Assembly (NCBI GenBank): GCA_038237415.1
Contig: JBBRYR010000008.1
Span: 25,852-89,851, forward strand
Length of the DNA stretch: 64,000 nucleotides
Origin: Burkholderiales bacterium
GTDB taxonomy: Bacteria > Pseudomonadota > Gammaproteobacteria > Burkholderiales > Burkholderiaceae_C
Direction of reading: 5' to 3'
Made by a program: the position numbers and the translations under genes. Under the pieces are notes generated by a model. It made no database searches. It saw only the letters and a program-made list of their open reading frames with translations, and had not been told where the DNA came from. Shown one piece after another: positions 5,467 through 55,374 of the stretch. Numbering within the stretch: the stretch's first letter is position 1; every line of letters starts with the position of its first letter.

Positions 5467-6525
5467 CTAGAAATTCAGCGGCATGTTCATGCCAAACGTG
5501 AAATCCGGGCTGTCTGAGGTAAGACCGATTCCTACCGAGAAGTTCACCGTGGTCAGCGGTGAGACGCGCACACCCAGCCCGAGATTCATCATTGCGGAGG
5601 TCTGGCTGGCCGTCTTGTTTTCCACCGCCTTCCCAGTTACATCGATGTACTTCAAACGCGTGCTGCCAGAGATGGATTCCTGAAAAGACAGCGTGGTGGT
5701 GATGTTGTAGGACATGGCATAGGCAAATCCAACACCAAACCCAACGGTCTGCCCAGGCGTCACCTCGTACAGGGTATTGCCATTGCTCTTCTGGTCCAGA
5801 TTCTTGGCGGGCAATCCAAACGTCACGTTGGCCGAGCCAAAGATGGCGACCGGATCAATCACCTTCGAAGCATTCAGCCCCAGCGTCGCGCTGGTGTAAC
5901 CGGCGCCTGTGGACAGGCCCTGTCCTTCAATCACCTCAAAGGGACTGCGGCCAGTGGGAAGCCGGACCGTCCCATTCACCGTGATGGACGGCAGGGTGCG
6001 GGACAACGGAAAAGGCTGCAGCCGCGCGCCGATGGAAACATCACCAAACCCGTTCACCACCTGGTCGTTGGTGTCAGACTGCGAAAACTTGCTGACGATT
6101 GGCACCGTCAGGTTGACGGTCAGATTGTCTTTGAGCCCGTAGTCCCCGGAGAAGGTGTTGGTCACCGTGTGTCCCCGCGTATTTTGAATGCTGAAGTTGG
6201 TCAACTTCGAATCCGCAAAATTTGCGTTGATCAGTTGCTGCCCGATGTAGGAATAGGTGAGGTCATAAGTGATCGCGCGCTTGCCCTCGCGCAATAGCGA
6301 ATACTGTTTATCCGTGGCGGACAAGGTTTCTTTCAGCACGGTGGCACTGTCCGCATCACCTTCCCGTTTGGCTAACGCATCCTTGGCTGCCTCGGTCGAT
6401 ACCGCCTGCGCAAACGCCGGTATCGAGGGCAACACAGTCAACGCGGAAAGGAGTGCCAGGGCACCCAGGGCAGACAGGCTCGCTCGGTGACGGTTCGTGG
6501 ATTGGATTTTCATGGGTACTTTCAT
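5467..6525 (-). CDS. Outer-membrane beta-barrel 'transporter' (FilC/FapF-like)
   Basis: Signal peptide, short helical segment, GFGDVSIGARLQP and LPTGRSPF motifs, C-terminal MNMPLNF. Confidence 0.8.
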   Translation of the reverse strand: MKVPMKIQSTNRHRASLSALGALALLSALTVLPSIPAFAQAVSTEAAKDALAKREGDADSATVLKETLSATDKQYSLLREGKRAITYDLTYSYIGQQLINANFADSKLTNFSIQNTRGHTVTNTFSGDYGLKDNLTVNLTVPIVSKFSQSDTNDQVVNGFGDVSIGARLQPFPLSRTLPSITVNGTVRLPTGRSPFEVIEGQGLSTGAGYTSATLGLNASKVIDPVAIFGSANVTFGLPAKNLDQKSNGNTLYEVTPGQTVGFGVGFAYAMSYNITTTLSFQESISGSTRLKYIDVTGKAVENKTASQTSAMMNLGLGVRVSPLTTVNFSVGIGLTSDSPDFTFGMNMPLNF

Positions 6526-6544
6526 ATAAATGGATGCATCACTG

Positions 6545-7312
6545 TTATTTGCGTAAGGAGAAATTTCCGAGGTTGGACATCACGGCGCGTTGCAGCGCTT
6601 CGGTGCGGTCGAGCTGGGGCAGCGTGGCATCTGCGCGAATCAGGTCACTGTCGATCACGCCCAGCTCGCGCTCGCCCAGAGCGAGCAGCGCCAGCGTGGT
6701 CGCGCCCTTGGGTGGATTCAGGAGGAACAGGGTGTTGCGATCCCAGAGACTGGTGAACTCCTCCACCGAAAAAACCACATGGCCCGCCGAGGGGTCTGCA
6801 ATGTAGATCCGCCCTCCGCGCGTGCCGCGATAGACCACAAAATGCTTGAACCCGGCGTAATCGATGGGCACGACGGCCGGGGTTTGCAACTCCATCAGGT
6901 CCGAGATCGTTCCCCGAAATCCGTTGGCCTCCACGCCCAGGGTGGCGACATAGCGCTTCATGTCCAGCAGCGAGAAGCCCCGGCGGGCCATGATCTTGTC
7001 GCGCTCCCCGTGCTCCAGCATGCCTTCCATCGCCTGCTGTTCTGTCACGGGGATACCAAGGTAATTGTTGATAACCGTGACCAGCGCAGCAGAGCCGCAG
7101 CTGTAGTCGTAAGTCTGGTGAACGATGTTGCGAAACTTGGCGACCGACTGGGGCTCAATACCCACCCGCTCAGGTGGTGTGCCACCACCGGCCAGCACCA
7201 TGGGCAATGCAAACTGATCAGCCGGTTGCTCTACGGGCGGCACTTGCGTGGCGGCCCCAAAGCCACTAATGCCAGTCGCAATCACCAGGTAAACAATGGG
7301 CCACATACTCAA
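6545..7312 (-). CDS. Stand-alone C39-family cysteine peptidase (FilB/FapD-like)
   Basis: QTYDYSCGSAAL (Cys), HFVVYRG (His), IADP (Asp); hydrophobic N-terminus; no ABC domain. Confidence 0.9.
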   Translation of the reverse strand: MSMWPIVYLVIATGISGFGAATQVPPVEQPADQFALPMVLAGGGTPPERVGIEPQSVAKFRNIVHQTYDYSCGSAALVTVINNYLGIPVTEQQAMEGMLEHGERDKIMARRGFSLLDMKRYVATLGVEANGFRGTISDLMELQTPAVVPIDYAGFKHFVVYRGTRGGRIYIADPSAGHVVFSVEEFTSLWDRNTLFLLNPPKGATTLALLALGERELGVIDSDLIRADATLPQLDRTEALQRAVMSNLGNFSLRK

Positions 7313-28372: not shown

Positions 28373-28440
28373 CCCTGTAGTCCGTGGACTGATCTGTGGA
28401 TAAGCGTGTTCACAACGCGAAAAACCCGCCAGAATGCTTT
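28373..28440 (+). repeat. DnaA-box-containing repeat family B, single copy
   Basis: CCCTG..CGTGGACTGATC-TGTGGATAA(28395-28403)-GCGTGTTCACAA..AAACCCGC. Confidence 0.75.
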
Positions 28441-29335
28441 ATCGACGCTGCCCCCACCACACGCCTGCCAGGGCCAGCAGTCCGCCAACGGCGTGGTACG
28501 CATGGAGCTGCTCGCCCAGCAGCGTTGACGCAGCCAGGGCCACAAAGAGTGGGAGCAGGTTCATGAACAGGCTGGCGCGCGCAGGGCCGAGCTTTTTGAT
28601 ACCGCTCATCCAGAAGAACGGCGCGCCGATGGAAGCAGGAATGCCGGCATACAGGATCAGCGGAGCGTTGTGCGCGTTGATGGGAGAGCTAGGGGCGTTC
28701 CACCAGAATGGCAACACCAGCAGGATGCCAAAGCCGATTTGCACGTAAAGCTGCTGCCACGTGGACAAGGGCACAGCCCAGCGTTTGAGCAACACACCGT
28801 AAAGCGCATTGGAGGCCACGGCGACCAGCATGAGTGCATCGCCCACATGGGCTGCACCGTCCAGCAAGGCCCATGGGTCGCCGCGCGTGCTGAGAATCCA
28901 TAATCCCAACAGTGACAAGGCAGCACCGCCAACCCGGGAACGCGTCAACGCCTCGCCGACAAACAGGCTGGCCAGAAGCGCGGAGATCAGCGGCATAAGC
29001 GCCACCACCACACCCATGTTGATGGCCGAGGTGGTCTTGGCAGCCTCATAGGCCAAGCCCTGGTACATGCCCATGCCAAGGCAACCCAGAAAGGCCAGTT
29101 TGGGCCAGTGCGCCGTAACGATGGCGCGTTGGCGCCATACGCTGCGCAAAACAAATGGCGTCAACACCAGCCCCGCCAGCAGCCACCGGTAGAAAGTGAT
29201 GGCGGCGGGTTCAATGGCCACGGCGGCGGCTTTGGTGACCAGTGTGTTGCCAGTCCATACGAGGACGGCGAGCAAAGGATAGATGGAGAAGTGAATGGCG
29301 GCAGGCCGCTGGGTTATGGGTGTGATGGTTTGCAT
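28439..29335 (-). CDS. DMT/EamA-family transporter
   Basis: LVWTGNTLVTK, FYRWLLA, 10-TM pattern, LLGEQL; divergent from the LysR gene. Confidence 0.92.
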   Translation of the reverse strand: MQTITPITQRPAAIHFSIYPLLAVLVWTGNTLVTKAAAVAIEPAAITFYRWLLAGLVLTPFVLRSVWRQRAIVTAHWPKLAFLGCLGMGMYQGLAYEAAKTTSAINMGVVVALMPLISALLASLFVGEALTRSRVGGAALSLLGLWILSTRGDPWALLDGAAHVGDALMLVAVASNALYGVLLKRWAVPLSTWQQLYVQIGFGILLVLPFWWNAPSSPINAHNAPLILYAGIPASIGAPFFWMSGIKKLGPARASLFMNLLPLFVALAASTLLGEQLHAYHAVGGLLALAGVWWGQRR

Positions 29336-47070: not shown

Positions 47071-49053
47071 ATGAATCAAGCGCAGTATTGCGCCATGCGC
47101 AATAGCCAAGATTCCAGCCAACATACCCCGGACAAAGTACAGCCTGATGAGGTTTGGAGCCAGGAGGTGTGCCTGTCACTGATCCAGAGTCTATGGACCC
47201 TGCGCCAAACCATGCTGGACCTGGAGCCTGTCTTTGCAACCGAGTTGCAGCAGGTGCAGCCCGGATACCAGCAGAGCGCCAGAAATCTGATTCATTACCT
47301 GGCCCTGCGCAGCGTCGACATGCGCGACCTGCAGGACAAACTGGCGTGGCTGGGATTGTCCTCATTAGGGCGCTCTGAATCGCACGTGCTGGCAAACCTG
47401 GACAAGGTCTTGGGGATATTGCACCGTTTGACGGGTCAGCCTTGGCACGACCGGTCGCCCGAGGAACCAATTGGCAGCGTCAGCGGCCGCCAGCTCCTGC
47501 AACGGCACAGCGCCGCGTTGCTGGGTGCCCCCAACGCCGGCCGGCCGGTGCGCATCATGGTCACGCTGCCGAGCGAGGCGGCCCATGACTCCGAAGTGGT
47601 GCGCAATCTGGTGAAGGCGGGCATGGACATTGCCCGCATCAACTGCGCGCATGACGATGCGAAGGCATGGCTGGCCATGGCAACCCACGTCAAACGCGCG
47701 GCCAAGTCGGCCCAGCGCGAGATTCGTATCCTGATGGATCTGGGGGGACCCAAAATCAGAACGGGCGAGGTGCAAGCGCGCCCGGCGGTGCTGCGCCTGC
47801 GCCCGCACCGCGACGACTTCGGCAGGGTGTATCACCCTGCGCGGCTTGGACTTTTTTCAGGCGAATTGCCGGGAGCAGTCGACGATGTGGATGCCTGCAT
47901 TGCGGTGGATCCAGAATGGCTCAATCGCTTGAAAGTGGGCTCGCAAATTGATTACGCCGATGCACGCGGTGCAAGGCGCCACCTGATGGTGGTGTCCAGG
48001 GACGACGCACTGGTCATTGCAGAAAGCATCCAGACGGCCTACCTGACGCCGGATACCGCCTTGACGTTGACCAGCAGCGGAGGCAAGAAGAAGTTCCAGA
48101 CGGTGGTGGGCACCATGGACGATGCGCCCGGTGTGGTGCAGCTGCACCGTGGCGAGATTCTTCAACTGACCAAAGACGGGTTGGGGCATTCCGCAGTGCG
48201 GGAAGACGGCGCCGAGGACGAGGTTCTGAAACCTGCGCGTATTGCCTGCACCTTGCCGCAAATTTTTAGCCAGGTTCACATCGGCGAGCGCATCTGGTTT
48301 GACGACGGTCGCATCGGTGGCGTGATTCGCCATGTGTCCGAAAAGTGGCTGGAGGTGGAGATCACGCAGGCCCGGCCGGGGGGCGAGCGGCTGGCCGCCG
48401 ACAAAGGCATCAACCTGCCGGACAGCCAGCTTGACCTGCCCGCCTTGACTGAAAAAGACCTGGAGGACCTGGCCACCGTTGCCAGTTGCGCGGACATGGT
48501 GGGTTTGTCATTTGTACAAAAACCTGCAGACATTCATGTGCTGCGTGAGCACCTGAAGCGCCTGGACCGCGAAGACATGGGCATCATTCTGAAAATTGAA
48601 ACCCTGCAGGGTTTTGAGAACCTGCCGGAACTCATGCTGGCCGCGATGGCAGCGTCATCCGCCGGCGTGATGATCGCGCGCGGCGACCTTGCCGTGGAAT
48701 GCGGCTATGAGCGTTTGGCCGAAGTGCAGGAAGAAATTTTGTGGTGCGCCGAGGCGGCGCACTTGCCGGTGATCTGGGCCACGCAGGTTCTGGAAACGCT
48801 GGCCAAAACCGGCGTACCCTCCAGGGCCGAGATTTCAGACGCCGGACTGGGAGTGCGCGCCGAGTGCGTGATGCTCAACAAGGGCCCCTACATTACCGAC
48901 GCGATCCGCTCGCTGGACGATATTTTGCAGCGCATGGGTGGGCATCAGGCCAAGAAGCGGCCCCTACTCAGAGCGTTACGCGCTTGGGGAGGTGCCCCGA
49001 CCACGGCTGCCAATCAACGTTCGGCTGCAGCCAGACACCCGAAAAAAAGTTAA
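47071..49053 (+). CDS. pyk: Pyruvate kinase, atypical long form
   Basis: RIMVTLP, ARINCAHD, DLGGPKIRTG, KGINLP, LKIET, MIARGDLAVE, WATQVLE, ECVMLNKG. Start may be 47095. Confidence 0.88.
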   Translation: MNQAQYCAMRNSQDSSQHTPDKVQPDEVWSQEVCLSLIQSLWTLRQTMLDLEPVFATELQQVQPGYQQSARNLIHYLALRSVDMRDLQDKLAWLGLSSLGRSESHVLANLDKVLGILHRLTGQPWHDRSPEEPIGSVSGRQLLQRHSAALLGAPNAGRPVRIMVTLPSEAAHDSEVVRNLVKAGMDIARINCAHDDAKAWLAMATHVKRAAKSAQREIRILMDLGGPKIRTGEVQARPAVLRLRPHRDDFGRVYHPARLGLFSGELPGAVDDVDACIAVDPEWLNRLKVGSQIDYADARGARRHLMVVSRDDALVIAESIQTAYLTPDTALTLTSSGGKKKFQTVVGTMDDAPGVVQLHRGEILQLTKDGLGHSAVREDGAEDEVLKPARIACTLPQIFSQVHIGERIWFDDGRIGGVIRHVSEKWLEVEITQARPGGERLAADKGINLPDSQLDLPALTEKDLEDLATVASCADMVGLSFVQKPADIHVLREHLKRLDREDMGIILKIETLQGFENLPELMLAAMAASSAGVMIARGDLAVECGYERLAEVQEEILWCAEAAHLPVIWATQVLETLAKTGVPSRAEISDAGLGVRAECVMLNKGPYITDAIRSLDDILQRMGGHQAKKRPLLRALRAWGGAPTTAANQRSAAARHPKKS

Positions 49054-50351
49054 CGGCACAGTTGCCGCACCACCTCGGCCATGTCGGGCCGGTCAGCCGG
49101 CAAGGGGCTCAGGCATGCCTGCGCCAAAACATTGAATTCATTGATGAGCCCTGCATGGTCGCCGTCGTGCTCTGCATGCAAAGCCAGTTCGTCCAGCAAG
49201 CAGCCAAAGGCGCGCACTTCCAGCGCTTGCAGGGCGCGCCGTTGGCCGGACTGCCCTTGCGGCAACAAGGTCGCGGCGCCAAAGTCGCTTAGCAGGGCTT
49301 CTCCGTTGGCGGGGTTCCAGAGGATGTTGTGGGCATACAGGTCACCATGCATCACGCCCCGCTGGTGCAAATGGGCTACTGCAGCAGCCATTTGCCGTGC
49401 CACGTTCAACACGCTGCTGGCTGCAATGCGCAGCTGGGGCGGATACACATCGCGGGTGCAGCTTTCCAGACTGGGCGGCCCTGCCAGGTTGATGTGGGTG
49501 GGCGGTATCAGCGGCAGCAGCAGGCCGCGCGCGCCTTGCGGATGGCCCACCAATTCGCCGCTGGGGGTGCACAACGCGGGGTGTTGGCCAGCGGCCAAAC
49601 TGGCGGCCAGCTCGTGCTCGGGCAGGCCATCACTGGTGACCGCGCCTTTGAACACCTTGAGCGCCAGGCTCTCCCCGCTGCTCCGGTGCTGCGCCCGATA
49701 AATCAGCCCGGACGCGCCCTCGCCCAGCAGGGTGCCCACGTGCAGCTGGTGCCACGGTACTGCGTCCATGGGCGCGGGCGCGGCGCGGTGCCAGCCCAAG
49801 GGGTTGCCCGAAAGCGCCAACCAACTCAGGCGTGGCAGTTCAGTCAGCCAACCTGGCAATTGCGACAACTGGTTGGCCGCCAGGCGTATCAGCTCCAGCT
49901 GGTGCGCCTGCGCCAGCCCTTGCGGCAAGCTGCGCAGCTGGTTGCCGGCCAGCATCAGCTTTTGCAGTGTGGCACGCTGGCCCAGTTCGGGTGGCAGGGT
50001 GGTGATGGCGTTATCGGTGAGTATCAGCCAGCGCAGCAGGGGCGGCAGCGCTGCGCCAGGTACATCGGCGATGCGGTTGGCCTTGAAGCCCACCACTTGC
50101 AGTGTGGGGCAAGCGCCCAGCACCTCCGGCAACTGGGTGAAATCATTGTCCGAGCAGAAAATAACCTTGAGCCGGTGCAGGCGTGGCAGGTCGTGCGGCA
50201 AGCTGCGGAGCTGGTTGCCCGACAGGTTGAGCACCTCCAGGGTGTCCGCCAGGGCAAATACTTCGGCGGGCACGGCTGCCAAGTCACAAGACAGGTCCAG
50301 GCGGCGCGTGCCTGCCAGTGCGCCGCTGCGCAGTTGTTCAAGGGTGTGCAT
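49050..50351 (-). CDS. Leucine-rich-repeat Ser/Thr-kinase-like protein
   Basis: LxxLxLxxNxL repeats; LGEGASG, ALKVFK, HGDLYAHN, DFG. Confidence 0.92.
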   Translation of the reverse strand: MHTLEQLRSGALAGTRRLDLSCDLAAVPAEVFALADTLEVLNLSGNQLRSLPHDLPRLHRLKVIFCSDNDFTQLPEVLGACPTLQVVGFKANRIADVPGAALPPLLRWLILTDNAITTLPPELGQRATLQKLMLAGNQLRSLPQGLAQAHQLELIRLAANQLSQLPGWLTELPRLSWLALSGNPLGWHRAAPAPMDAVPWHQLHVGTLLGEGASGLIYRAQHRSSGESLALKVFKGAVTSDGLPEHELAASLAAGQHPALCTPSGELVGHPQGARGLLLPLIPPTHINLAGPPSLESCTRDVYPPQLRIAASSVLNVARQMAAAVAHLHQRGVMHGDLYAHNILWNPANGEALLSDFGAATLLPQGQSGQRRALQALEVRAFGCLLDELALHAEHDGDHAGLINEFNVLAQACLSPLPADRPDMAEVVRQLCR

Positions 50352-50431
50352 GCAGGGTTAACGGAAGTGAGAGAGTCATCACGCGGTGCGTGCGACGTGG
50401 GGTGCTGATTATCGAGGCCAAAAAATAGTTG

Positions 50432-50744
50432 CCCCCGCAGACTGTGCGCCACGCTGTGGATAACCGCACTGGGAAGCCGCCAAACCCGCGCCAGTACTGG
50501 CTTGGCGGACCATGCCTAATAATTAATCAACATACGTATCAGCGTGATCAGGTTTCAGTCGTTTCTCGAATGAAGCACTTTTTTGTGATAGCAGTTACAG
50601 CGGCAATGCATAGGGCACCCTGCTGGCCGCAGAGGCCCATTGTTACCCCTGATTTCTGTGGAGCACGCTGTGGATAACAATGTTCACAAGTCACCAAACC
50701 CGCGCCAGCAGGGGCTATAAGCCGGGTGCCTTGCAAATGAGCAG
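50432..50744 (+). repeat. Composite element: two family-B units with DnaA boxes
   Basis: TGTGGATAA at 50455 and 50669 (214 bp apart); TGTGATAGCA at 50584; GTGCCTTGCAAATGAGCAG at 50726. Confidence 0.85.
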
Positions 50745-50794
50745 CGGCACAACACACGCCCTGATTGGGCATTGCCACGGCTGGAATGTTGGGG

Positions 50795-52009
50795 CTAGAC
50801 CTTGAGGACCTTGGCCACCGGGTTGTGCCGTAGCCGGAACGCGTCGGGCATGCCCGAGCCCAGCAATGGGCGCAGGTACATGCGAAAAGCATCGGTCACA
50901 TCGGTGCCACTGGGGGCGATGAATTCGTCTTCCATGACGCGGGTTTTACCGGCCACCGCGTCGAGCGGCAGCAGCTCGTAATCCGCCGAGTAAAAGCCGG
51001 TGCGCTTGATGGCGACTGAACCATCGCGCCCGCCCCACATGGCGTACTGCACGGCCTTCTCGCCCACCTCGCGTGCCTCGCGCTGATCCACATCCGACAC
51101 GCAGCCGATAAAAGAGCGCTGCAGGTAGCCAAAGGTGTCGCCGCGCACGCGTTTGATGCCCAGCTTGGCCTTGATTTCTTCGCACAGCAGGTCGGCCAGC
51201 GCACCGTTGCCGGAGAGCTGCACGTTGCCATGGGCGTCGTGCTCCAGGTCTTTGGCCAACATCGTGGCGATGGGCGCGCCACTGGCGTCATGAATGCCTT
51301 CTGATACGGCAATCACACAACGGCCATAGCGCGCGTAGGTGGCTTTGACGTCCGCCAGAAATTGCTCCAGCACAAAGATGCGCTCGGGCAGGTAGATCAG
51401 GTGGGGGCCGTCATCCGGAAATTTTTTGCCCAGAGCAGATGCCGCCGTCAAAAAGCCGGCGTGGCGGCCCATGACCACGCCCACATAGACGCCGGGCAGC
51501 GCGGCGTTGTCCAGGTTGGCACCCGCAAAGGCCTGCGCCACAAAACGTGCGGCAGACGGGTAGCCCGGGGTGTGGTCGTTGCCCACCAGGTCGTTGTCGA
51601 TGGTCTTGGGAATGTGAATACTGCGCAGCGGATAACCCGCCTTTTGCGCCTCCAGGCTGACGATGCGCACGGTGTCGCTTGAATCGTTGCCGCCAATGTA
51701 GAAAAAGTGCTCGATCTCGTGTGCGCGCAGCACCTTGAAGATTTCCTGGCAGTAGGCCAGGTCGGGCTTGTCACGGGTGGAGCCGAGCGCGCTGGACGGT
51801 GTGTTGGCTACCAGCTCCAGGTTGTGGCTGGTTTCCTGGGTCAGGTCGACAAAGTTCTCATCGACGATGCCGCGTACACCATGCAATGCGCCGTAGATGC
51901 GCTCAATGCCACCAAAGCGTCGCGCTTCCAGCGCCACGCCCACCAAAGACTGGTTGATCACCGCAGTGGGGCCGCCGCCTTGGGCGACGAGTATTTTTCC
52001 GGATGCCAT
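50795..52009 (-). CDS. 6-phosphofructokinase, probably PPi-dependent
   Basis: AQGGGPTAVIN, IGGNDS (Asp), PKTIDND (Lys), VMGRHAG. The Asp/Lys pair is the PPi-type signature. Confidence 0.9.
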   Translation of the reverse strand: MASGKILVAQGGGPTAVINQSLVGVALEARRFGGIERIYGALHGVRGIVDENFVDLTQETSHNLELVANTPSSALGSTRDKPDLAYCQEIFKVLRAHEIEHFFYIGGNDSSDTVRIVSLEAQKAGYPLRSIHIPKTIDNDLVGNDHTPGYPSAARFVAQAFAGANLDNAALPGVYVGVVMGRHAGFLTAASALGKKFPDDGPHLIYLPERIFVLEQFLADVKATYARYGRCVIAVSEGIHDASGAPIATMLAKDLEHDAHGNVQLSGNGALADLLCEEIKAKLGIKRVRGDTFGYLQRSFIGCVSDVDQREAREVGEKAVQYAMWGGRDGSVAIKRTGFYSADYELLPLDAVAGKTRVMEDEFIAPSGTDVTDAFRMYLRPLLGSGMPDAFRLRHNPVAKVLKV

Positions 52010-52123
52010 GGCGGGTTTCCTTATCGAAGTGGGATGAGGCCGGGTGTCCATCCCATTGTGCATCGCCCAAACAGGCGCGGCTAGACCTGTGCGCGCGAGC
52101 GCGCATGGCTTACCCGACCATTT

Positions 52124-52168
52124 CACTATCAAATAGATAGCTGCCTGCGCATATTCCACGGGGGCTGG
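52124..52168 (+). repeat. 45-bp repeat family A, isolated copy
   Basis: CACTATCAAATAGATAGC-TGCCTGCGC-ATATTCCAC-GGGGGCTGG. Confidence 0.9.
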
Positions 52169-52211
52169 CGGCCATTTTTATCTATAGACTTCGGGTTTTG
52201 CCCATTTCACC

Positions 52212-52835
52212 ATGCCACCACCTGATTTCAGCCCCGCAGCGGACCGCAACAAGCAGCCCATCCTCGAAGTGCTTCGGCAAGTCTTGCCGCCGCATGGCAG
52301 CGCGCTGGAGATTGCGTCAGGCACCGGCCAGCATGTGGCGTGGTTTGCGGCCGGCCTGCCGCACTGGACCTGGCAGCCCACCGACGCACAGCCGGGCGGG
52401 CTGAGCAGCATTGCGGGCTGGGTGGCCCAACAGCACCTGGAGAATGTGCGCGCACCGGTGTTGCTGGACGTGATGGCACCGCGCTGGCTTGCGCAAGACG
52501 CCCAACGGGGCCCCATCGTGTTTGATGCCATCTACTGCGCCAACATGCTGCACATTGCCCCCTGGGCCACCTGCGCGGCCTTGATGCACGGGGCGGCTCG
52601 GCACCTTGCGACCAAGGGCGTGCTGATTACCTACGGCCCCTATCTGGAAGACGATGTATCCACCTCCCCCGGAAATCAGTCGTTTGACCAAAGTCTGCGT
52701 GCCCAAAACCCGGCCTGGGGCATTCGTCGGCGTGAAGACGTGGAGCAAGAAGCCAGGCTGGCGGGACTGCATCTGATTGAGCGGCACACCATGCCCTCCA
52801 ACAACCTCTTGCTGGTGTGGGCCAAGAAGGCCTGA
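52212..52835 (+). CDS. DUF938-family SAM-dependent methyltransferase
   Basis: AADRNKQPIL, LEIASGTGQH, NMLHIAPW, YGPY, MPSNN. Confidence 0.92.
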   Translation: MPPPDFSPAADRNKQPILEVLRQVLPPHGSALEIASGTGQHVAWFAAGLPHWTWQPTDAQPGGLSSIAGWVAQQHLENVRAPVLLDVMAPRWLAQDAQRGPIVFDAIYCANMLHIAPWATCAALMHGAARHLATKGVLITYGPYLEDDVSTSPGNQSFDQSLRAQNPAWGIRRREDVEQEARLAGLHLIERHTMPSNNLLLVWAKKA

Positions 52836-52847
52836 GCGCAGCAGGAC

Positions 52848-54413
52848 TCAGCTTGCCCGCGATGGCGCCAGCACGACCCGCTGTTTGCCCGATTGCTTGG
52901 CTAGGTACATGGCCTGGTCTGCGGCAGCGGTCAGCGTTTTCAGGGTATCGCCGCACTCCGGGTAAAGCGCCACACCCACGCTGGCAGACACAGACACCAG
53001 ACAGTCGGCATAGGGCATGGAGAGCAGTGCGATGATGCGTTCAGCTGTCTCCAGCGCGCTTTCCTCGCTCACATCGGTCAGCAGGATGATGAATTCGTCT
53101 CCGCCAATTCTGGCCGCAATGTCAGAGGCACGAATGACCTCCTGAATACGCTGGGCCACCGTTTTCAACACCCCATCACCTGCGGCGTGGCCATGCGTGT
53201 CGTTGACGCCCTTGAAGCCATCCAGATCCACGGCCAGCAAGGCCATCGTTTGACCTCGGCGTGAGGCAAACGCGAGGTCGTGCTCTGCCACCTCGTCAAA
53301 CAGCAGGCGGTTGGGCAGTTCGGTCAAGGCATCGTGCTGGGCCAGAAATTTGACCTTTTTCATGGCCTGTGCCGCCTGCCGCATGGCGTGCCCCACAGCC
53401 TGGGCCTCTTCCAATTGCATGGTGGGCAGTTGCACATCCTCACCCTTGCTCAGGGAGAGGGCCGCGTCATTGAGCTCGCGCACCGACAACAGCACCCGCA
53501 TTGAAATGGTGCGCGCCAGCCAGATCCCCAAACCCAATGCGGCCAATACGCCCACGAGCACGCGTGCGAGTTGCCACGCCATGTCGTACTCGAGCCGCAC
53601 TTTCGGCGCGCCTACCACCACACTCCACCGCCAGGCACCGGAGGTCGCATACCCCACAAACATGGCAACTCCTTCCCTGTTGCGGACCTGGATCTGGCCA
53701 TCCCCATTTTGGGCAATGGCTTCCATCAGCTCGGGGACCGCCTTTTTCCCTACGTACAGCTCGGCATCGCGCGAGCGCCCGACGATCGTTCCAGAGCTGT
53801 CACTCACTGCGGCCAGCCAGCCCCGAGGCAATTTCTGGCGGTTAAGAATAGCGGTGATACGCCTGGGGTCAAGACCCATGTTCAGACTGTAGGCAATCTG
53901 CTTGTGAACCTCTACTGGAACGCCAATGGCAATGGCGGGCAATTGGGTGAGCTGTCCAGTGAACATATCGGTCAGTACGGTCGCATGGTCTGTAAACACG
54001 CGCGCGATCTGCGGCGGTGTTCCGGTTGCGGGAAGCGCCTCACCATACGGTTGGAGGGTATTCAGAATCTGTCGTCCCCCGCGGTCAGTGACGATGTAGT
54101 TGTGCGCGATGCCGGGCGCCAGCGCATCGACGGCCCTTTGGTGGAAGCTGCGCAAGTCGCCGGCCGAAAGCTCGTTGGCGGTGGCAAGAATCTTGAGAGC
54201 GGACTCAATGGTCGCAATTTCACGCTCCAGATCGGCCAGAATCGTACGCGCCATCAGCACCGTCTGCTGCTCAACGTGGTCGCGCTGCAACCTGTAGTTG
54301 GAATAGGCCAATGTGGCACTAACCAGTGCGGCAGGCATCACGCATACGATGACCAGCAGCATCAAATTGCGACGCAGCGAGTAGTGATGACTGGTTAACA
54401 CCGAATTCAGCAT
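52848..54413 (-). CDS. Cache-sensor diguanylate cyclase
   Basis: TM-Cache-TM, HDALTELPNR, DLDGFKGVND, ARIGGDEF. Confidence 0.92.
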   Translation of the reverse strand: MLNSVLTSHHYSLRRNLMLLVIVCVMPAALVSATLAYSNYRLQRDHVEQQTVLMARTILADLEREIATIESALKILATANELSAGDLRSFHQRAVDALAPGIAHNYIVTDRGGRQILNTLQPYGEALPATGTPPQIARVFTDHATVLTDMFTGQLTQLPAIAIGVPVEVHKQIAYSLNMGLDPRRITAILNRQKLPRGWLAAVSDSSGTIVGRSRDAELYVGKKAVPELMEAIAQNGDGQIQVRNREGVAMFVGYATSGAWRWSVVVGAPKVRLEYDMAWQLARVLVGVLAALGLGIWLARTISMRVLLSVRELNDAALSLSKGEDVQLPTMQLEEAQAVGHAMRQAAQAMKKVKFLAQHDALTELPNRLLFDEVAEHDLAFASRRGQTMALLAVDLDGFKGVNDTHGHAAGDGVLKTVAQRIQEVIRASDIAARIGGDEFIILLTDVSEESALETAERIIALLSMPYADCLVSVSASVGVALYPECGDTLKTLTAAADQAMYLAKQSGKQRVVLAPSRAS

Positions 54414-54592
54414 GTGTTGTATTGCCGATTGTTTAGCCCCTGCCCTGAGGCGCACTATCGCAGATGCCGGGCGGCGGTGCAAATAGCGTTGCACACCCTG
54501 CAACCCTTCTTTGCACAAAGACCCCTGCCGTTTACACCGGGTACACATGGAGGCCACACGATCGAGGCTCTTTCAACACAAGGAGCTACTCC

Positions 54593-55030
54593 ATGAAATC
54601 CACCGCTATTGTCTGTGCCATTGCCGTAGCCAGCCTGGGGTTCAGTGCACTCTCTTTCGCAGAGGGCAATGACCGGCACGGCCCGCGGGAAGATCAGTAC
54701 AGGGCTCAGCAATACGGCGATCAGCGGGGCGAGCAGCGTTATGAACGCCGTGATGAAGGTCGCGCCGGGCGCTGGGATGATCGCCGCTTTGACCGTTACG
54801 ACGACCGCCGCAACGACCGCCGCGCCTATTACAACGCCCACGGCCCGGAATTCAGGCGCGGTGGCTATGTGCCACGCGAGTTCCATAACCACCGCTATGT
54901 GGTGACGGATTACCGTGCCTATCGCCTGAGTCCACCCCCAAGAGGTCACGAGTGGGTGCAGGTGGGGCCGGACTTTGTTTTGATCGCGATTGCCACGGGC
55001 CTGATCGCCCATATCGTGCTCAGCCAGTGA
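54593..55030 (+). CDS. RcnB-family periplasmic protein
   Basis: RBS AAGGAG; signal peptide; Arg/Asp-rich linker; YRLSPPPRGHEWVQVGPDFVLIAIATGLI. Confidence 0.88.
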   Translation: MKSTAIVCAIAVASLGFSALSFAEGNDRHGPREDQYRAQQYGDQRGEQRYERRDEGRAGRWDDRRFDRYDDRRNDRRAYYNAHGPEFRRGGYVPREFHNHRYVVTDYRAYRLSPPPRGHEWVQVGPDFVLIAIATGLIAHIVLSQ

Positions 55031-55055
55031 AACGACGGCCCACTTCATGAAAATA

Positions 55056-55374
55056 CTTACCCCTGAGAGCTGTGGGCCACGTTGTGGATAACTAGACTCA
55101 CAAGCTGCCAATCCCGCACCAGTGCTGGCTTTGCAGCCGCTGCTCATTATTTAAGCAAATCAGGTAATTCACTGGAAGATTTTTTGCCTAATTTGCCAAT
55201 GGGAAAGAAATGTGTGATAGCAAAAAATAGTGTTGGTCAATCTGCTGCAATGCAGCACCTATGAGTCCCCAGTTACCCCCGATTCCTGTGGGCCACGTTG
55301 TGGATAACTATGTTTATAAGCCTCAAAACCCGCACCACGACTGGCTTTGCCGACAGTGCCTTGTAATTGACCAG
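55056..55374 (+). repeat. Second copy of the composite DnaA-box element
   Basis: TGTGGATAA at 55083 and 55299 (216 bp apart); TGTGATAGCA at 55213; GTGCCTTGTAATTGACCAG at 55356. Confidence 0.85.

What the first reader, a model, noticed from the sequence alone, without database searches (positions are those of the whole stretch)
50432..55374. A ~350-bp composite non-coding element occurs twice with conserved internal geometry
Seen: in both intergenic regions the two DnaA boxes are 214 and 216 bp apart, TGTGATAGCA sits 129 and 130 bp after the first box, and GTGCCTTG(C/T)AA(A/T)TGA(G/C)CAG sits exactly 57 bp after the second, while the spacers have diverged and are AT-rich. Inference: spacing is under selection, as expected for a nucleoprotein platform (DnaA plus a bending protein, DARS/datA-like), a structured RNA, or a non-autonomous mobile element. 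I know of no described element with this layout.
Basis: partly seen in the sequence, partly recalled or inferred. Interest (0 to 1): 0.65.

Follow-up and report, generated by a model that had tools for sequence, protein, structure and literature searches.

The report
Paired DARS-like DnaA-box DNA modules
Each of the two ~325-bp non-coding stretches is a locked pair of ~110-bp DNA modules built around a perfect binding site for the replication initiator DnaA. The sites are laid out like the E. coli 'DARS' sequences that recharge DnaA, so this is most likely a replication-control or DnaA-sensing DNA element, not an RNA or a mobile element.

Summary
The window holds five co-oriented copies of a ~110-nt unit: two type1+type2 pairs and one truncated single. 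They are the only copies in this 3.9-Mb Rhodoferax genome.

In seven pairs from Rhodoferax and Polaromonas the box-to-box distance is 214-216 bp, although the spacers are only 26-30% identical.

The unit's conserved blocks are four DnaA-box-like 9-mers: inverted TTACCCCYG, 5 bp, TGTGGGCYA, 3 bp, invariant TGTGGATAA, 3 bp, TGTTCACAA. This is the spacing and orientation of the E. coli DARS1 and DARS2 cores. DnaA-likeness peaks only at those gaps.

A Fis-consensus 15-mer sits at +59 in 37 of 46 copies. A TGTGnTA motif sits at +108 in single units and at +128 to +130 in pairs.

I found no RNA covariation, Rfam match, codon periodicity, terminal repeats, integrase, or plasmid or phage copies.

A layout pattern finds more than 120 loci in Comamonadaceae, Oxalobacteraceae, Pseudomonas and others, about 4 expected by chance. 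In Pseudomonas, box I is a good DnaA box.

Against strict DARS membership: boxes I and II are weak, no IHF site was found, DnaA Gln208 is Ser here, and several Rhodoferax genomes lack the element.

Verdict: a new variant of a known kind. Its function is untested.

The parts
50422..50744 (+). Composite A: type-1 unit (50422-50530), AT-rich spacer, type-2 unit (50636-50744). It lies between the start of an LRR-kinase gene (-) and the 3' end of a PPi-phosphofructokinase gene (-).
55050..55374 (+). Composite B: type-1 unit (55050-55158), AT-rich spacer, type-2 unit (55266-55374). It lies downstream of rcnB-like (+) and upstream of a Na+/H+ exchanger gene (+). It is orthologous to the pair in genome G527.
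28373..28452 (+). Fifth, 3'-truncated type-1 unit (box III at 28395-28403, box III' at 28407-28415). It lies between two minus-strand genes.
50455..50463 (+). A1 box III, perfect DnaA box TGTGGATAA. Flanking boxes: I 50429-50437 (TTGCCCCCG, inverted, 5/9), II 50443-50451 (TGTGCGCCA, 5/9), III' 50467-50475 (degenerate, 3/9).
50669..50677 (+). A2 box III, perfect DnaA box. Flanking boxes: I 50643-50651 (TTACCCCTG, 5/9), II 50657-50665 (TGTGGAGCA, 7/9), III' 50681-50689 (TGTTCACAA, 6/9).
55083..55091 (+). B1 box III, perfect DnaA box. Flanking boxes: I 55057-55065 (TTACCCCTG, 5/9), II 55071-55079 (TGTGGGCCA, 6/9), III' 55095-55103 (3/9).
55299..55307 (+). B2 box III, perfect DnaA box. Flanking boxes: I 55273-55281 (TTACCCCCG, 6/9), II 55287-55295 (TGTGGGCCA, 6/9), III' 55311-55319 (TGTTTATAA, 7/9).
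50514..50528 (.). A1 Fis-consensus-like 15-mer GCCTAATAATTAATC (6/6 of GnnYAnnnnnTRnnC), 59 bp after the box.
55142..55156 (.). B1 Fis-consensus-like 15-mer GCTCATTATTTAAGC (6/6), 59 bp after the box.
50728..50742 (.). A2 Fis-like 15-mer GCCTTGCAAATGAGC (5/6).
55358..55372 (.). B2 Fis-like 15-mer GCCTTGTAATTGACC (5/6). It lies inside the 3' block 55356-55374 and also contains a -35-like TTGACC.
50568..50593 (+). A spacer island: GAATGA (+113) followed by TGTGATAGCA (+129). Promoter-like (extended -10-like), but it did not pass the sigma-70 consensus scan.
55197..55222 (+). B spacer island: (TTGC)CAATGG (+114) followed by TGTGATAGCA (+130). Same remarks as for A.

Best explanation
The element works as double-stranded DNA: it is a platform on which the replication initiator DnaA assembles.

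Each ~110-bp unit carries four DnaA-type 9-mers with the orientation and gaps of the E. coli DARS core:
- box I, inverted (TTACCCCYG)
- 5 bp
- box II (TGTGGGCYA)
- 3 bp
- box III (invariant TGTGGATAA)
- 3 bp
- box III' (TGTTCACAA)

Inferred mechanism:
1. DnaA docks on the perfect box III.
2. Bound DnaA recruits further DnaA head-to-tail onto II and III', and head-to-head onto I.
3. A Fis-type bending protein binds the G-N2-Y-A...T-R-N2-C site 59 bp downstream. An A/T tract at +91 adds curvature, so the complex has a fixed shape.
4. In the composite, two such units are held 215 +/- 1 bp apart around an AT-rich, promoter-like core (SAATGR at +113, TGTGnTAGCA at +129).

The likeliest function is to act on DnaA itself: exchanging its nucleotide as DARS does, or holding and releasing it. 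A side effect would be to tie the neighbouring promoters to DnaA occupancy.

Shown here: the sequence layout, its conservation, its geometry and its wide distribution. Inferred: DnaA and Fis binding, and any effect on DnaA or on transcription.
For: (1) TGTGGATAA is unchanged in 45 of 46 copies from several genera. It carries the extended flanks YTGTGGATAAS seen at E. coli R1, R4 and DARS1 box II.

(2) DnaA-likeness around it peaks only at three places:
- gap 3 downstream: 5.70/9
- gap 3 upstream: 5.59/9
- inverted box, gap 5 further upstream: 5.24/9
Background over 327 other offsets is 2.16, sd 0.53, max 4.37.

(3) E. coli DARS1 (TTATCCACT-N5-TGTGGATAA-N3-TGTGTATTA) and DARS2 (TTATTCACC-N5-TGTGGATAG-N3-TGTGAAGAA) have exactly this arrangement. 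PMC6868365 states the 5-bp I-II gap, the opposite orientation, a degenerate box III', and that the spaces between boxes are highly conserved in DARS candidates of various bacteria.

(4) The layout pattern TTRCCC-N8-TGTG-N8-TGTGGATAAS gives more than 120 loci in one-genome-per-species contigs, against about 4 expected by my arithmetic. Hits include Rhodoferax, Polaromonas, Limnohabitans, Collimonas, Oxalobacter, many Pseudomonas and Stutzerimonas, Methylophaga and Xanthomonas. In Pseudomonas, box I reads TTGCCCACA or TTACCCACA (7-8/9), which shows that the Rhodoferax 'TTACCCC' block is a weakened DnaA box.

(5) The Fis consensus (PMC10380432) is met at >=5 of 6 positions at +59 in 37 of 46 copies, and that is the clearly dominant offset (next best: -8 in 21 copies, +33 in 11). 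The genome encodes Fis, IHF-alpha and IHF-beta homologues.

(6) Distances are fixed while sequence is random:
- +108 in 18 single units
- +128 to +130 in pairs, about two helical turns more
- box-to-box 214-216 in seven pairs
- spacers 26-30% identical

(7) The DNA-contact residues R399, D433 and T435 of DnaA are conserved. The genome's oriC-like locus uses the same box.

(8) RNA, coding and mobile-element readings fail (see rival explanations).
Against: - Boxes I and II are poor (5-6/9), and box I lacks the CACA half. In E. coli it is boxes I and II that release ADP, and box II is the strong one. Here the strong box is at position III.
- E. coli DnaA Gln208, which is specifically needed for DARS function, aligns to Ser in this DnaA.
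- No IHF consensus (<=1 mismatch) is present anywhere in six pairs.
- Four near-complete Rhodoferax genomes (94-99% complete) have no copy by pattern search, and copy number ranges from 0 to at least 5. The element is therefore dispensable.
- Twelve of 13 type-2 units sit 60-120 nt upstream of a co-directional gene, which fits a plain promoter-operator role as well.
- Genome-wide, perfect boxes (17) are no more frequent than composition predicts (about 14 by my arithmetic).
- There are no binding or expression data.
Confidence: 0.5

Rival explanations
1. Plain DnaA-operated promoter cassette. The unit is only the upstream regulatory region of a promoter, and DnaA acts as a transcription factor. 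The promoters would be type 2 (-35 (A/T)TGACC plus CAAAAT) and type 1 (TGTGnTA extended -10). The element has no role in controlling DnaA itself.
For: - Twelve of 13 type-2 units precede a co-directional gene at 60-120 nt: panE-like in 6 genomes, a Na+/H+ exchanger in 2, a lipoprotein in 3.
- Several type-1 units precede a small 2Fe-2S ferredoxin gene.
- Everything conserved lies upstream of the putative -10, and nothing downstream is conserved.
- Copy A, which has no downstream gene, has decayed -35-like hexamers.
- DnaA is a known transcription factor at DnaA-box clusters (PMC3245932, PMC13438810).
Against: - About half of the single type-1 units lie between convergent genes yet keep every block and the +108 motif. 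This holds even across genera (L019 versus L031).
- The sigma-70 consensus scan finds no promoter inside either window copy.
- The downstream genes have no common function.
- A four-box DARS-type geometry with a head-to-head box is more than an operator needs.
Confidence: 0.25
2. DnaA sink or datA-like inactivator. The units hold DnaA on high-affinity boxes, or promote ATP hydrolysis, and so lower initiation potential rather than raise it.
For: - Five of the genome's 17 perfect boxes are concentrated in 27 kb.
- Spacing is strictly kept, as reported for datA (PMC10380432).
- In three complete genomes the cluster lies about 30% of the genome length from dnaA.
Against: - The datA function needs an IHF site between its boxes, and no IHF consensus is present.
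- Five strong boxes is a small sink.
- The box layout matches DARS rather than what is described for datA.
- Many congeners lack the element.
Confidence: 0.1
3. Structured RNA (sRNA or leader). The unit is transcribed and works as RNA.
For: - A small hairpin, TGCCT-loop-AGGCA, recurs, sometimes with G-U pairs on the + strand.
- Type-2 units may lie in 5' leaders if the spacer motif is a promoter.
Against: - RNAalifold energy is about zero on both strands.
- Mean fold z-scores are -0.9 forward and -0.3 reverse.
- Own-versus-other duplex permutation tests give p=0.28 and p=0.56.
- The 3' side of the apparent box hairpin varies without compensation.
- There is no Rfam hit at E<=1, nor in Pseudomonas or Polaromonas loci.
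- No terminators were found.
- The 21-bp step between the +108 and +129 classes suggests DNA helical phasing.
Confidence: 0.05
4. Relic of a mobile or recombination element (attP-like site or MITE), or the site of another protein, in which the DnaA box is a coincidence.
For: - TGCCT-N7-AGGCA resembles a tyrosine-recombinase core, and the TGTG repeats could be arm sites.
- Units sit at different sides of the same gene in different genomes: the Na+/H+ exchanger has the pair upstream in G000 and G527 but a single unit downstream in G024 and G021.
- Composite A is at a non-orthologous site.
Against: - There are no terminal inverted repeats or target duplications.
- There is no integrase on contig C8.
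- The genome has only five copies, and there are no plasmid or phage copies.
- The chance that a 110-bp element holds a perfect box is about 4e-4 by my arithmetic. Yet the box is the most conserved block, and three more DnaA-like 9-mers sit at DARS gaps.
- In Pseudomonas, box I is a near-consensus DnaA box.
Confidence: 0.07

Closest known systems
E. coli DARS1 and DARS2 (DnaA-reactivating sequences; bioD-uvrB and rppH-mutH intergenic regions)
   Same: - Non-coding chromosomal DNA.
- A cluster of DnaA boxes with box I inverted, a 5-bp gap, then boxes II and III in the other orientation with a 3-bp gap, plus a degenerate fourth box.
- One box is a perfect consensus.
- DARS2 adds Fis sites, and a Fis-consensus site is present here at a fixed distance.
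- Both lie in promoter-bearing intergenic regions.
   Different: - The perfect box is at position III, not II, and boxes I and II are weak (5-6/9).
- No IHF consensus.
- DnaA Gln208 is Ser here.
- Units occur as a 215-bp-locked pair and in 0 to at least 5 copies per genome, clustered and co-oriented.
- There is no sequence homology beyond the boxes.
- Activity is untested.
E. coli datA (DnaA-ATP hydrolysis locus)
   Same: A non-coding DnaA-box cluster whose function depends on exact spacing and on a DNA-bending protein (PMC10380432).
   Different: datA needs an IHF site, and none was found here. The box layout here matches DARS, not what is described for datA.
Bacillus subtilis DnaA-box clusters outside oriC (DBCs) and Pseudomonas aeruginosa oriCII
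   Same: Extra-origin DnaA-box clusters in intergenic regions that both regulate neighbouring genes and influence initiation (PMC3245932, PMC13438810; abstracts only).
   Different: The two papers, read only as abstracts or text excerpts, describe no repeated ~110-bp unit with a DARS-type head-to-head box or a fixed 215-bp pairing for those clusters.
DARS-like elements noted earlier in this scan (for example e1-5200697, another Comamonadaceae genome)
   Same: I reached the same layout independently (before).
   Different: I could not show by sequence look-up that its locus belongs to this family. It reports IHF sites, which I did not find here.

Membership tests
DARS (DnaA-reactivating sequence) core | Boxes I and II in opposite orientation, separated by 5 bp | tested here: met
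   The inverted DnaA-like 9-mer peaks only at a gap of 5 bp upstream of box II: 5.24/9, against <=3.76 at other gaps. E. coli references: and PMC6868365.
DARS (DnaA-reactivating sequence) core | Boxes II and III in the same orientation with a 3-bp gap (plus a degenerate III') | tested here: met
   Same-orientation peaks occur only at a gap of 3 bp on both sides of the perfect box: 5.59 and 5.70 of 9. DARS1 and DARS2 both have a 3-bp gap.
DARS (DnaA-reactivating sequence) core | Boxes I and II are good DnaA boxes (7-9/9 in E. coli), with box II the strongest | tested here: not met
   In this family box I scores 5-6/9 and lacks the CACA half, box II scores 5-7/9, and the perfect box is at position III. 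In Pseudomonas relatives box I scores 7-8/9.
DARS (DnaA-reactivating sequence) core | DnaA carries Gln208 (E. coli numbering), needed for head-to-head ADP release | tested here: not met
   In the alignment of the genome's DnaA with E. coli DnaA, Q208 aligns to S. V211, Q215, F239, K243 and L290 are kept. The requirement is stated in PMC6868365.
DARS (DnaA-reactivating sequence) core | Promotes ADP release from ADP-DnaA | not testable with these tools
   This needs an in vitro nucleotide-dissociation assay.
DARS2-type regulatory region | Fis-binding site(s) | tested here: met
   GnnYAnnnnnTRnnC is met at >=5 of 6 positions at +59 in 37 of 46 copies (6/6 in 10), and this is the clearly dominant offset (next best: -8 in 21 copies, +33 in 11). 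A Fis homologue is present. This is a consensus match only.
DARS2-type regulatory region / datA | IHF-binding site at a fixed distance from the boxes | tested here: not met
   WATCAANNNNTTR with <=1 mismatch is absent from -40 to +340 of six pairs.
Structured RNA family | Conserved secondary structure with covariation, or a match to a curated family | tested here: not met
MITE / non-autonomous transposon | Terminal inverted repeats, target-site duplication, many dispersed copies | tested here: not met
   No inverted repeat bounds the unit. All five copies lie on one contig. No plasmid or phage copies.
Replication origin (oriC) | DnaA boxes next to DnaA-trios or an unwinding element; one per chromosome | tested here: not met
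   The element is multi-copy, and it lies about 1.2-1.5 Mb from dnaA in complete relatives. A separate oriC-like locus with TAG-trios exists on contig C26.

The most novel reading that the evidence does not exclude
Beta- and gammaproteobacteria share an undescribed, often multi-copy class of DARS-type modules with three distinctive features:
- The high-affinity DnaA box sits at position III.
- In the Rhodoferax/Polaromonas branch, two modules are locked 215 bp apart around an AT-rich promoter-like core.
- DnaA lacks Gln208.

This would be a DnaA recharging or sensing device that uses a different protein interface from the E. coli one and couples initiation potential to local transcription.
Probability: 0.3. 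Interest if true: 0.7.

Novelty: new variant of a known kind. Interest (0 to 1): 0.52.

Why it matters
In every paper I could read, DARS and datA had been worked out experimentally only in E. coli. Whether other bacteria recharge or park DnaA on dedicated chromosomal DNA is an open question.

This family gives a sharply defined candidate that can be mutated:
- four boxes at fixed gaps
- a Fis-type site at +59
- a 215-bp pair rule

It occurs in culturable genera (Rhodoferax, Polaromonas, Pseudomonas). It also comes with natural controls: congeners without it, and a DnaA that lacks the E. coli key residue.

If it binds DnaA only as an operator, it still defines a small DnaA regulon and a 'portable' promoter-upstream module.

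Tried and rejected
- Faulty pattern: my first order-wide pattern search had a wrong gap (N6 instead of N7) and is uninformative.
- Protein coding:
  - The reverse strand is open through '...LVNTLIHNLAH..G*' in most copies.
  - Column variability shows no 3-base periodicity, so this reading is rejected.
- Sigma-54 and ECF promoters, LexA, CRP and PhoB sites: considered by eye, and the spacing does not fit.
- Sigma-70 promoters and terminators: the consensus scan finds none inside the window's copies.
- Alternative pairing of TGCCT with the distal TAGGCA (attenuator idea): the permutation test is negative.
- IHF site: absent.
- Integrase or att idea: no integrase on the contig.
- Plasmid or phage origin: no hits.
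- Empty-site test at composite A:
  - Relatives that have the pfk gene share only the coding sequence.
  - Their flanks differ, so no clean empty site exists.
- YfaE link of the downstream ferredoxin: only 28 bits against a cut-off of 75, so it is a generic 2Fe-2S ferredoxin.
- Orthology of the Pseudomonas loci to DARS1: they are not next to uvrB.
- Orientation relative to fork direction:
  - Consistent in G001, G010 and G565, but not in a weak copy in G082.
  - Too few cases to use.

Full report
**Observation**

The region was read directly. Perfect DnaA boxes TGTGGATAA lie on the + strand at 50455, 50669, 55083 and 55299, and a fifth lies at 28395. That is five in the window against 0.20 expected, and no shuffle reaches five.

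- 214 and 216 bp between boxes
- TGTGATAGCA at +129 and +130
- the 19-mer GTGCCTTG... at +57 from the second box in both copies

Each composite is itself a direct repeat of one ~110-nt unit. The four copies are 50422-50530, 50636-50744, 55050-55158 and 55266-55374. First units resemble each other more than they resemble second units, so the pair was duplicated as a whole.

A profile search of the whole 3.9-Mb assembly finds only these four units plus a truncated fifth at about 28373-28452. All are on one contig and one strand.

**Surroundings**

The neighbours are ordinary genes:
- an LRR-kinase gene
- a PPi-phosphofructokinase gene
- a DUF938 methyltransferase gene
- a GGDEF gene
- an rcnB-like gene
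- a Na+/H+ exchanger gene

There is no integrase on the contig. The composite has no match in plasmid or phage collections.

**Relatives**

BLAST and profile searches find the unit in 11 of 24 sampled genomes of the same genus. Units are always co-oriented within a contig and are often clustered.

Weaker copies occur in other genera of the family. I collected 48 distinct copies.

Two subtypes exist:
- Type 1 has an A-run before ACTTACCCC and ends TGCCT-N7-AGGCA.
- Type 2 ends TGCCTTGCAAATGACCAG.
Pairs are always type 1 followed by type 2.

In seven pairs the box-to-box distance is 214-216 bp. These are the window's two pairs plus G010, G004, G001, G527 and a Polaromonas MAG. SAATGR sits at +113/114 and TGTGnTAGCA at +128 to +130. 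The two spacer segments are only 26-30% identical without gaps.

In 18 single type-1 units the motif TGTGnTAGGCA starts at exactly +108, about two helical turns less than in pairs.

**RNA, coding or DNA**

The evidence is against RNA:
- RNAalifold gives about -3 and -0.1 kcal/mol on the two strands of 28 units. On a type-1 subset of 10 units it gives -10 and -13 kcal/mol with covariance terms of only -0.7 and -0.2, and the sole consistent helix is the palindromic TGCCT...AGGCA hairpin, found on both strands.
- Mean z-scores of single folds are -0.9 forward and -0.3 reverse.
- A permutation test asked whether each copy's 5' half pairs better with its own partner than with other copies' partners. 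It is negative, p=0.28 and p=0.56.
- There is no Rfam match at gathering score or at E<=1, here or in related loci.

The evidence is also against coding. A reverse-strand frame is open through most copies, but column variability has no three-base period.

The consensus scans find no sigma-70 promoter or intrinsic terminator inside the window's copies.

**Anatomy**

Counting from the first base of TGTGGATAA, conservation falls into blocks. Scoring every offset and orientation for likeness to the DnaA box over 46 copies gives only three peaks besides the box itself:

| Position | Orientation | Mean score | Typical sequence |
|---|---|---|---|
| -12 | same | 5.59/9 | TGTGGGCYA |
| +12 | same | 5.70/9 | TGTTCACAA |
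| -26 | inverted | 5.24/9 | TTACCCCYG |

Over 327 other offsets the mean is 2.16, sd 0.53, max 4.37. In terms of gaps, the peaks occur only at 3 bp, 3 bp and 5 bp.

I took the E. coli sequences from the annotated genome:
- DARS1 reads TTATCCACT-N5-TGTGGATAA-N3-TGTGTATTA.
- DARS2 reads TTATTCACC-N5-TGTGGATAG-N3-TGTGAAGAA.

PMC6868365 describes the same points:
- boxes I and II oppositely oriented with a 5-bp space
- box II as the full consensus
- a degenerate box III'
- conserved spaces between boxes in DARS candidates of various bacteria

The unit thus has the DARS-core geometry, extended by one box. The perfect box is at position III rather than II.

**Wider family**

My arithmetic, assuming equal base frequencies over 596 Gb and both strands, expects about 4.

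Hits include:
- Rhodoferax, Polaromonas, Limnohabitans and other Comamonadaceae
- Collimonas and Oxalobacter
- a Hydrogenophilaceae MAG
- many Pseudomonas and Stutzerimonas
- Methylophaga, Methylovulum and Xanthomonas

In Pseudomonas, box I reads TTGCCCACA or TTACCCACA (7-8/9). An inverted repeat with a T-run lies near +60. Tandem arrays with 134-182 bp spacing occur. This supports reading the Rhodoferax block 'TTACCCC' as a weakened DnaA box, and it shows that the layout is old and widespread. The Pseudomonas loci are not next to uvrB, so they are not positional orthologues of DARS1.

**Second protein site**

The Fis consensus quoted in PMC10380432, GnnYAnnnnnTRnnC, is met at >=5 of 6 specified positions at offset +59 in 37 of 46 copies, and at 6 of 6 in 10 copies. 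The central seven bases are about 80% A+T. This is the clearly dominant offset (next best: -8 in 21 copies, +33 in 11). The window's A1 and B1 score 6/6.

The genome encodes Fis, IHF-alpha and IHF-beta homologues. An IHF consensus with at most one mismatch is absent from all six pairs examined.

**Points against calling it a DARS**

- Boxes I and II, which release ADP in E. coli, are the weakest here.
- E. coli DnaA Gln208, specifically required for DARS function, aligns to Ser in this genome's DnaA. The DNA-contact residues and other interface residues are kept.
- Four near-complete congeners lack the element by pattern search.
- Twelve of 13 type-2 units lie 60-120 nt upstream of a co-directional gene (panE-like, Na+/H+ exchanger, lipoprotein). 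They have -35-like (A/T)TGACC and -10-like CAAAAT hexamers, so a plain DnaA-operator role for promoters is a serious rival.

Against that rival, about half of the single type-1 units lie between convergent genes and still keep every block. This includes an orthologous locus in two genera.

**Position and dynamics**

In complete relatives the cluster lies 1.18 Mb (G001, G010) or 1.53 Mb (G565) from dnaA, about 30% of genome length. This may only reflect synteny.

Units lie on different sides of the same gene in different genomes. Composite A sits beside a patchily distributed pfk gene whose relatives lack the pair. Units are therefore gained and lost, probably by local duplication and deletion. 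No transposition signature is visible.

**Earlier notes of the scan**

After I had derived the layout, a word search showed an earlier follow-up on another Comamonadaceae genome that read a three-unit DnaA-box array as DARS2-like. Similar readings exist for other phyla. These are unchecked AI notes, and I could not link that locus to this family by sequence. They agree with the present reading, but I do not count them as evidence.

**Verdict**

The best-supported reading is a DNA-level DnaA assembly platform of DARS-core layout, with a Fis-type site. In the Rhodoferax/Polaromonas lineage it is built into a rigid two-unit composite around a promoter-like AT-rich core.

Binding and function are inferred, not shown. 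Whether the element recharges DnaA, holds it, or merely lets DnaA regulate the adjacent promoters needs the bench tests listed under next steps.

Noticed in passing
own genome G000:C26:12600-12850 (outside the window): An oriC-like locus not next to dnaA (which is on contig C25). It has an AT-rich tract with TAGTAGTAGTAG (DnaA-trio-like), a GC-rich spacer, and two perfect DnaA boxes 119 bp apart.
   Followed up: partly
own genome G000:C11:23000-23130 (outside the window): A compact relative of the unit next to hemE: GATTTCTGTGGATAA-CTT-TGTTGATAT, then CCCGCC, then GCCTTGTAAATCAAGG. This gives two boxes with the same 3-bp gap, as if one 12-bp repeat were missing. It fell below the profile threshold.
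   Followed up: partly
window 50795-52012 (-): The PPi-type phosphofructokinase gene is present in only 4 of 15 sampled congeners. It is 89% identical in protein to a copy in a different family of the order, and only the coding sequence is shared. This looks like horizontal transfer.
   Followed up: partly
L018, L017, L024 (relatives); unit 3' parts: A convergent cysteine-desulfurase/rhodanese-type gene reads into the element. It ends at a TAA inside the A/T loop of TGCCT-N7-AGGCA, giving non-conserved C-terminal tails.
   Followed up: no
L128, L114, L133 (Pseudomonas loci): Tandem arrays of two to five units with the same box layout, spaced 134-182 bp (larger in L133). Several Pseudomonas and Stutzerimonas copies sit next to a yigZ/IMPACT-like gene.
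   Followed up: partly
window 49050-50351 (-): A 433-aa protein combines leucine-rich repeats with a protein-kinase domain. Its start lies 70 nt from the left edge of composite A.
   Followed up: no
L055 (G527) 6397-6681 and L025, L042: In three Rhodoferax genomes a type-1 unit sits directly upstream of a small plant-type 2Fe-2S ferredoxin gene. An earlier scan note describes a DnaA-box array next to a ferredoxin gene in another Comamonadaceae genome.
   Followed up: partly
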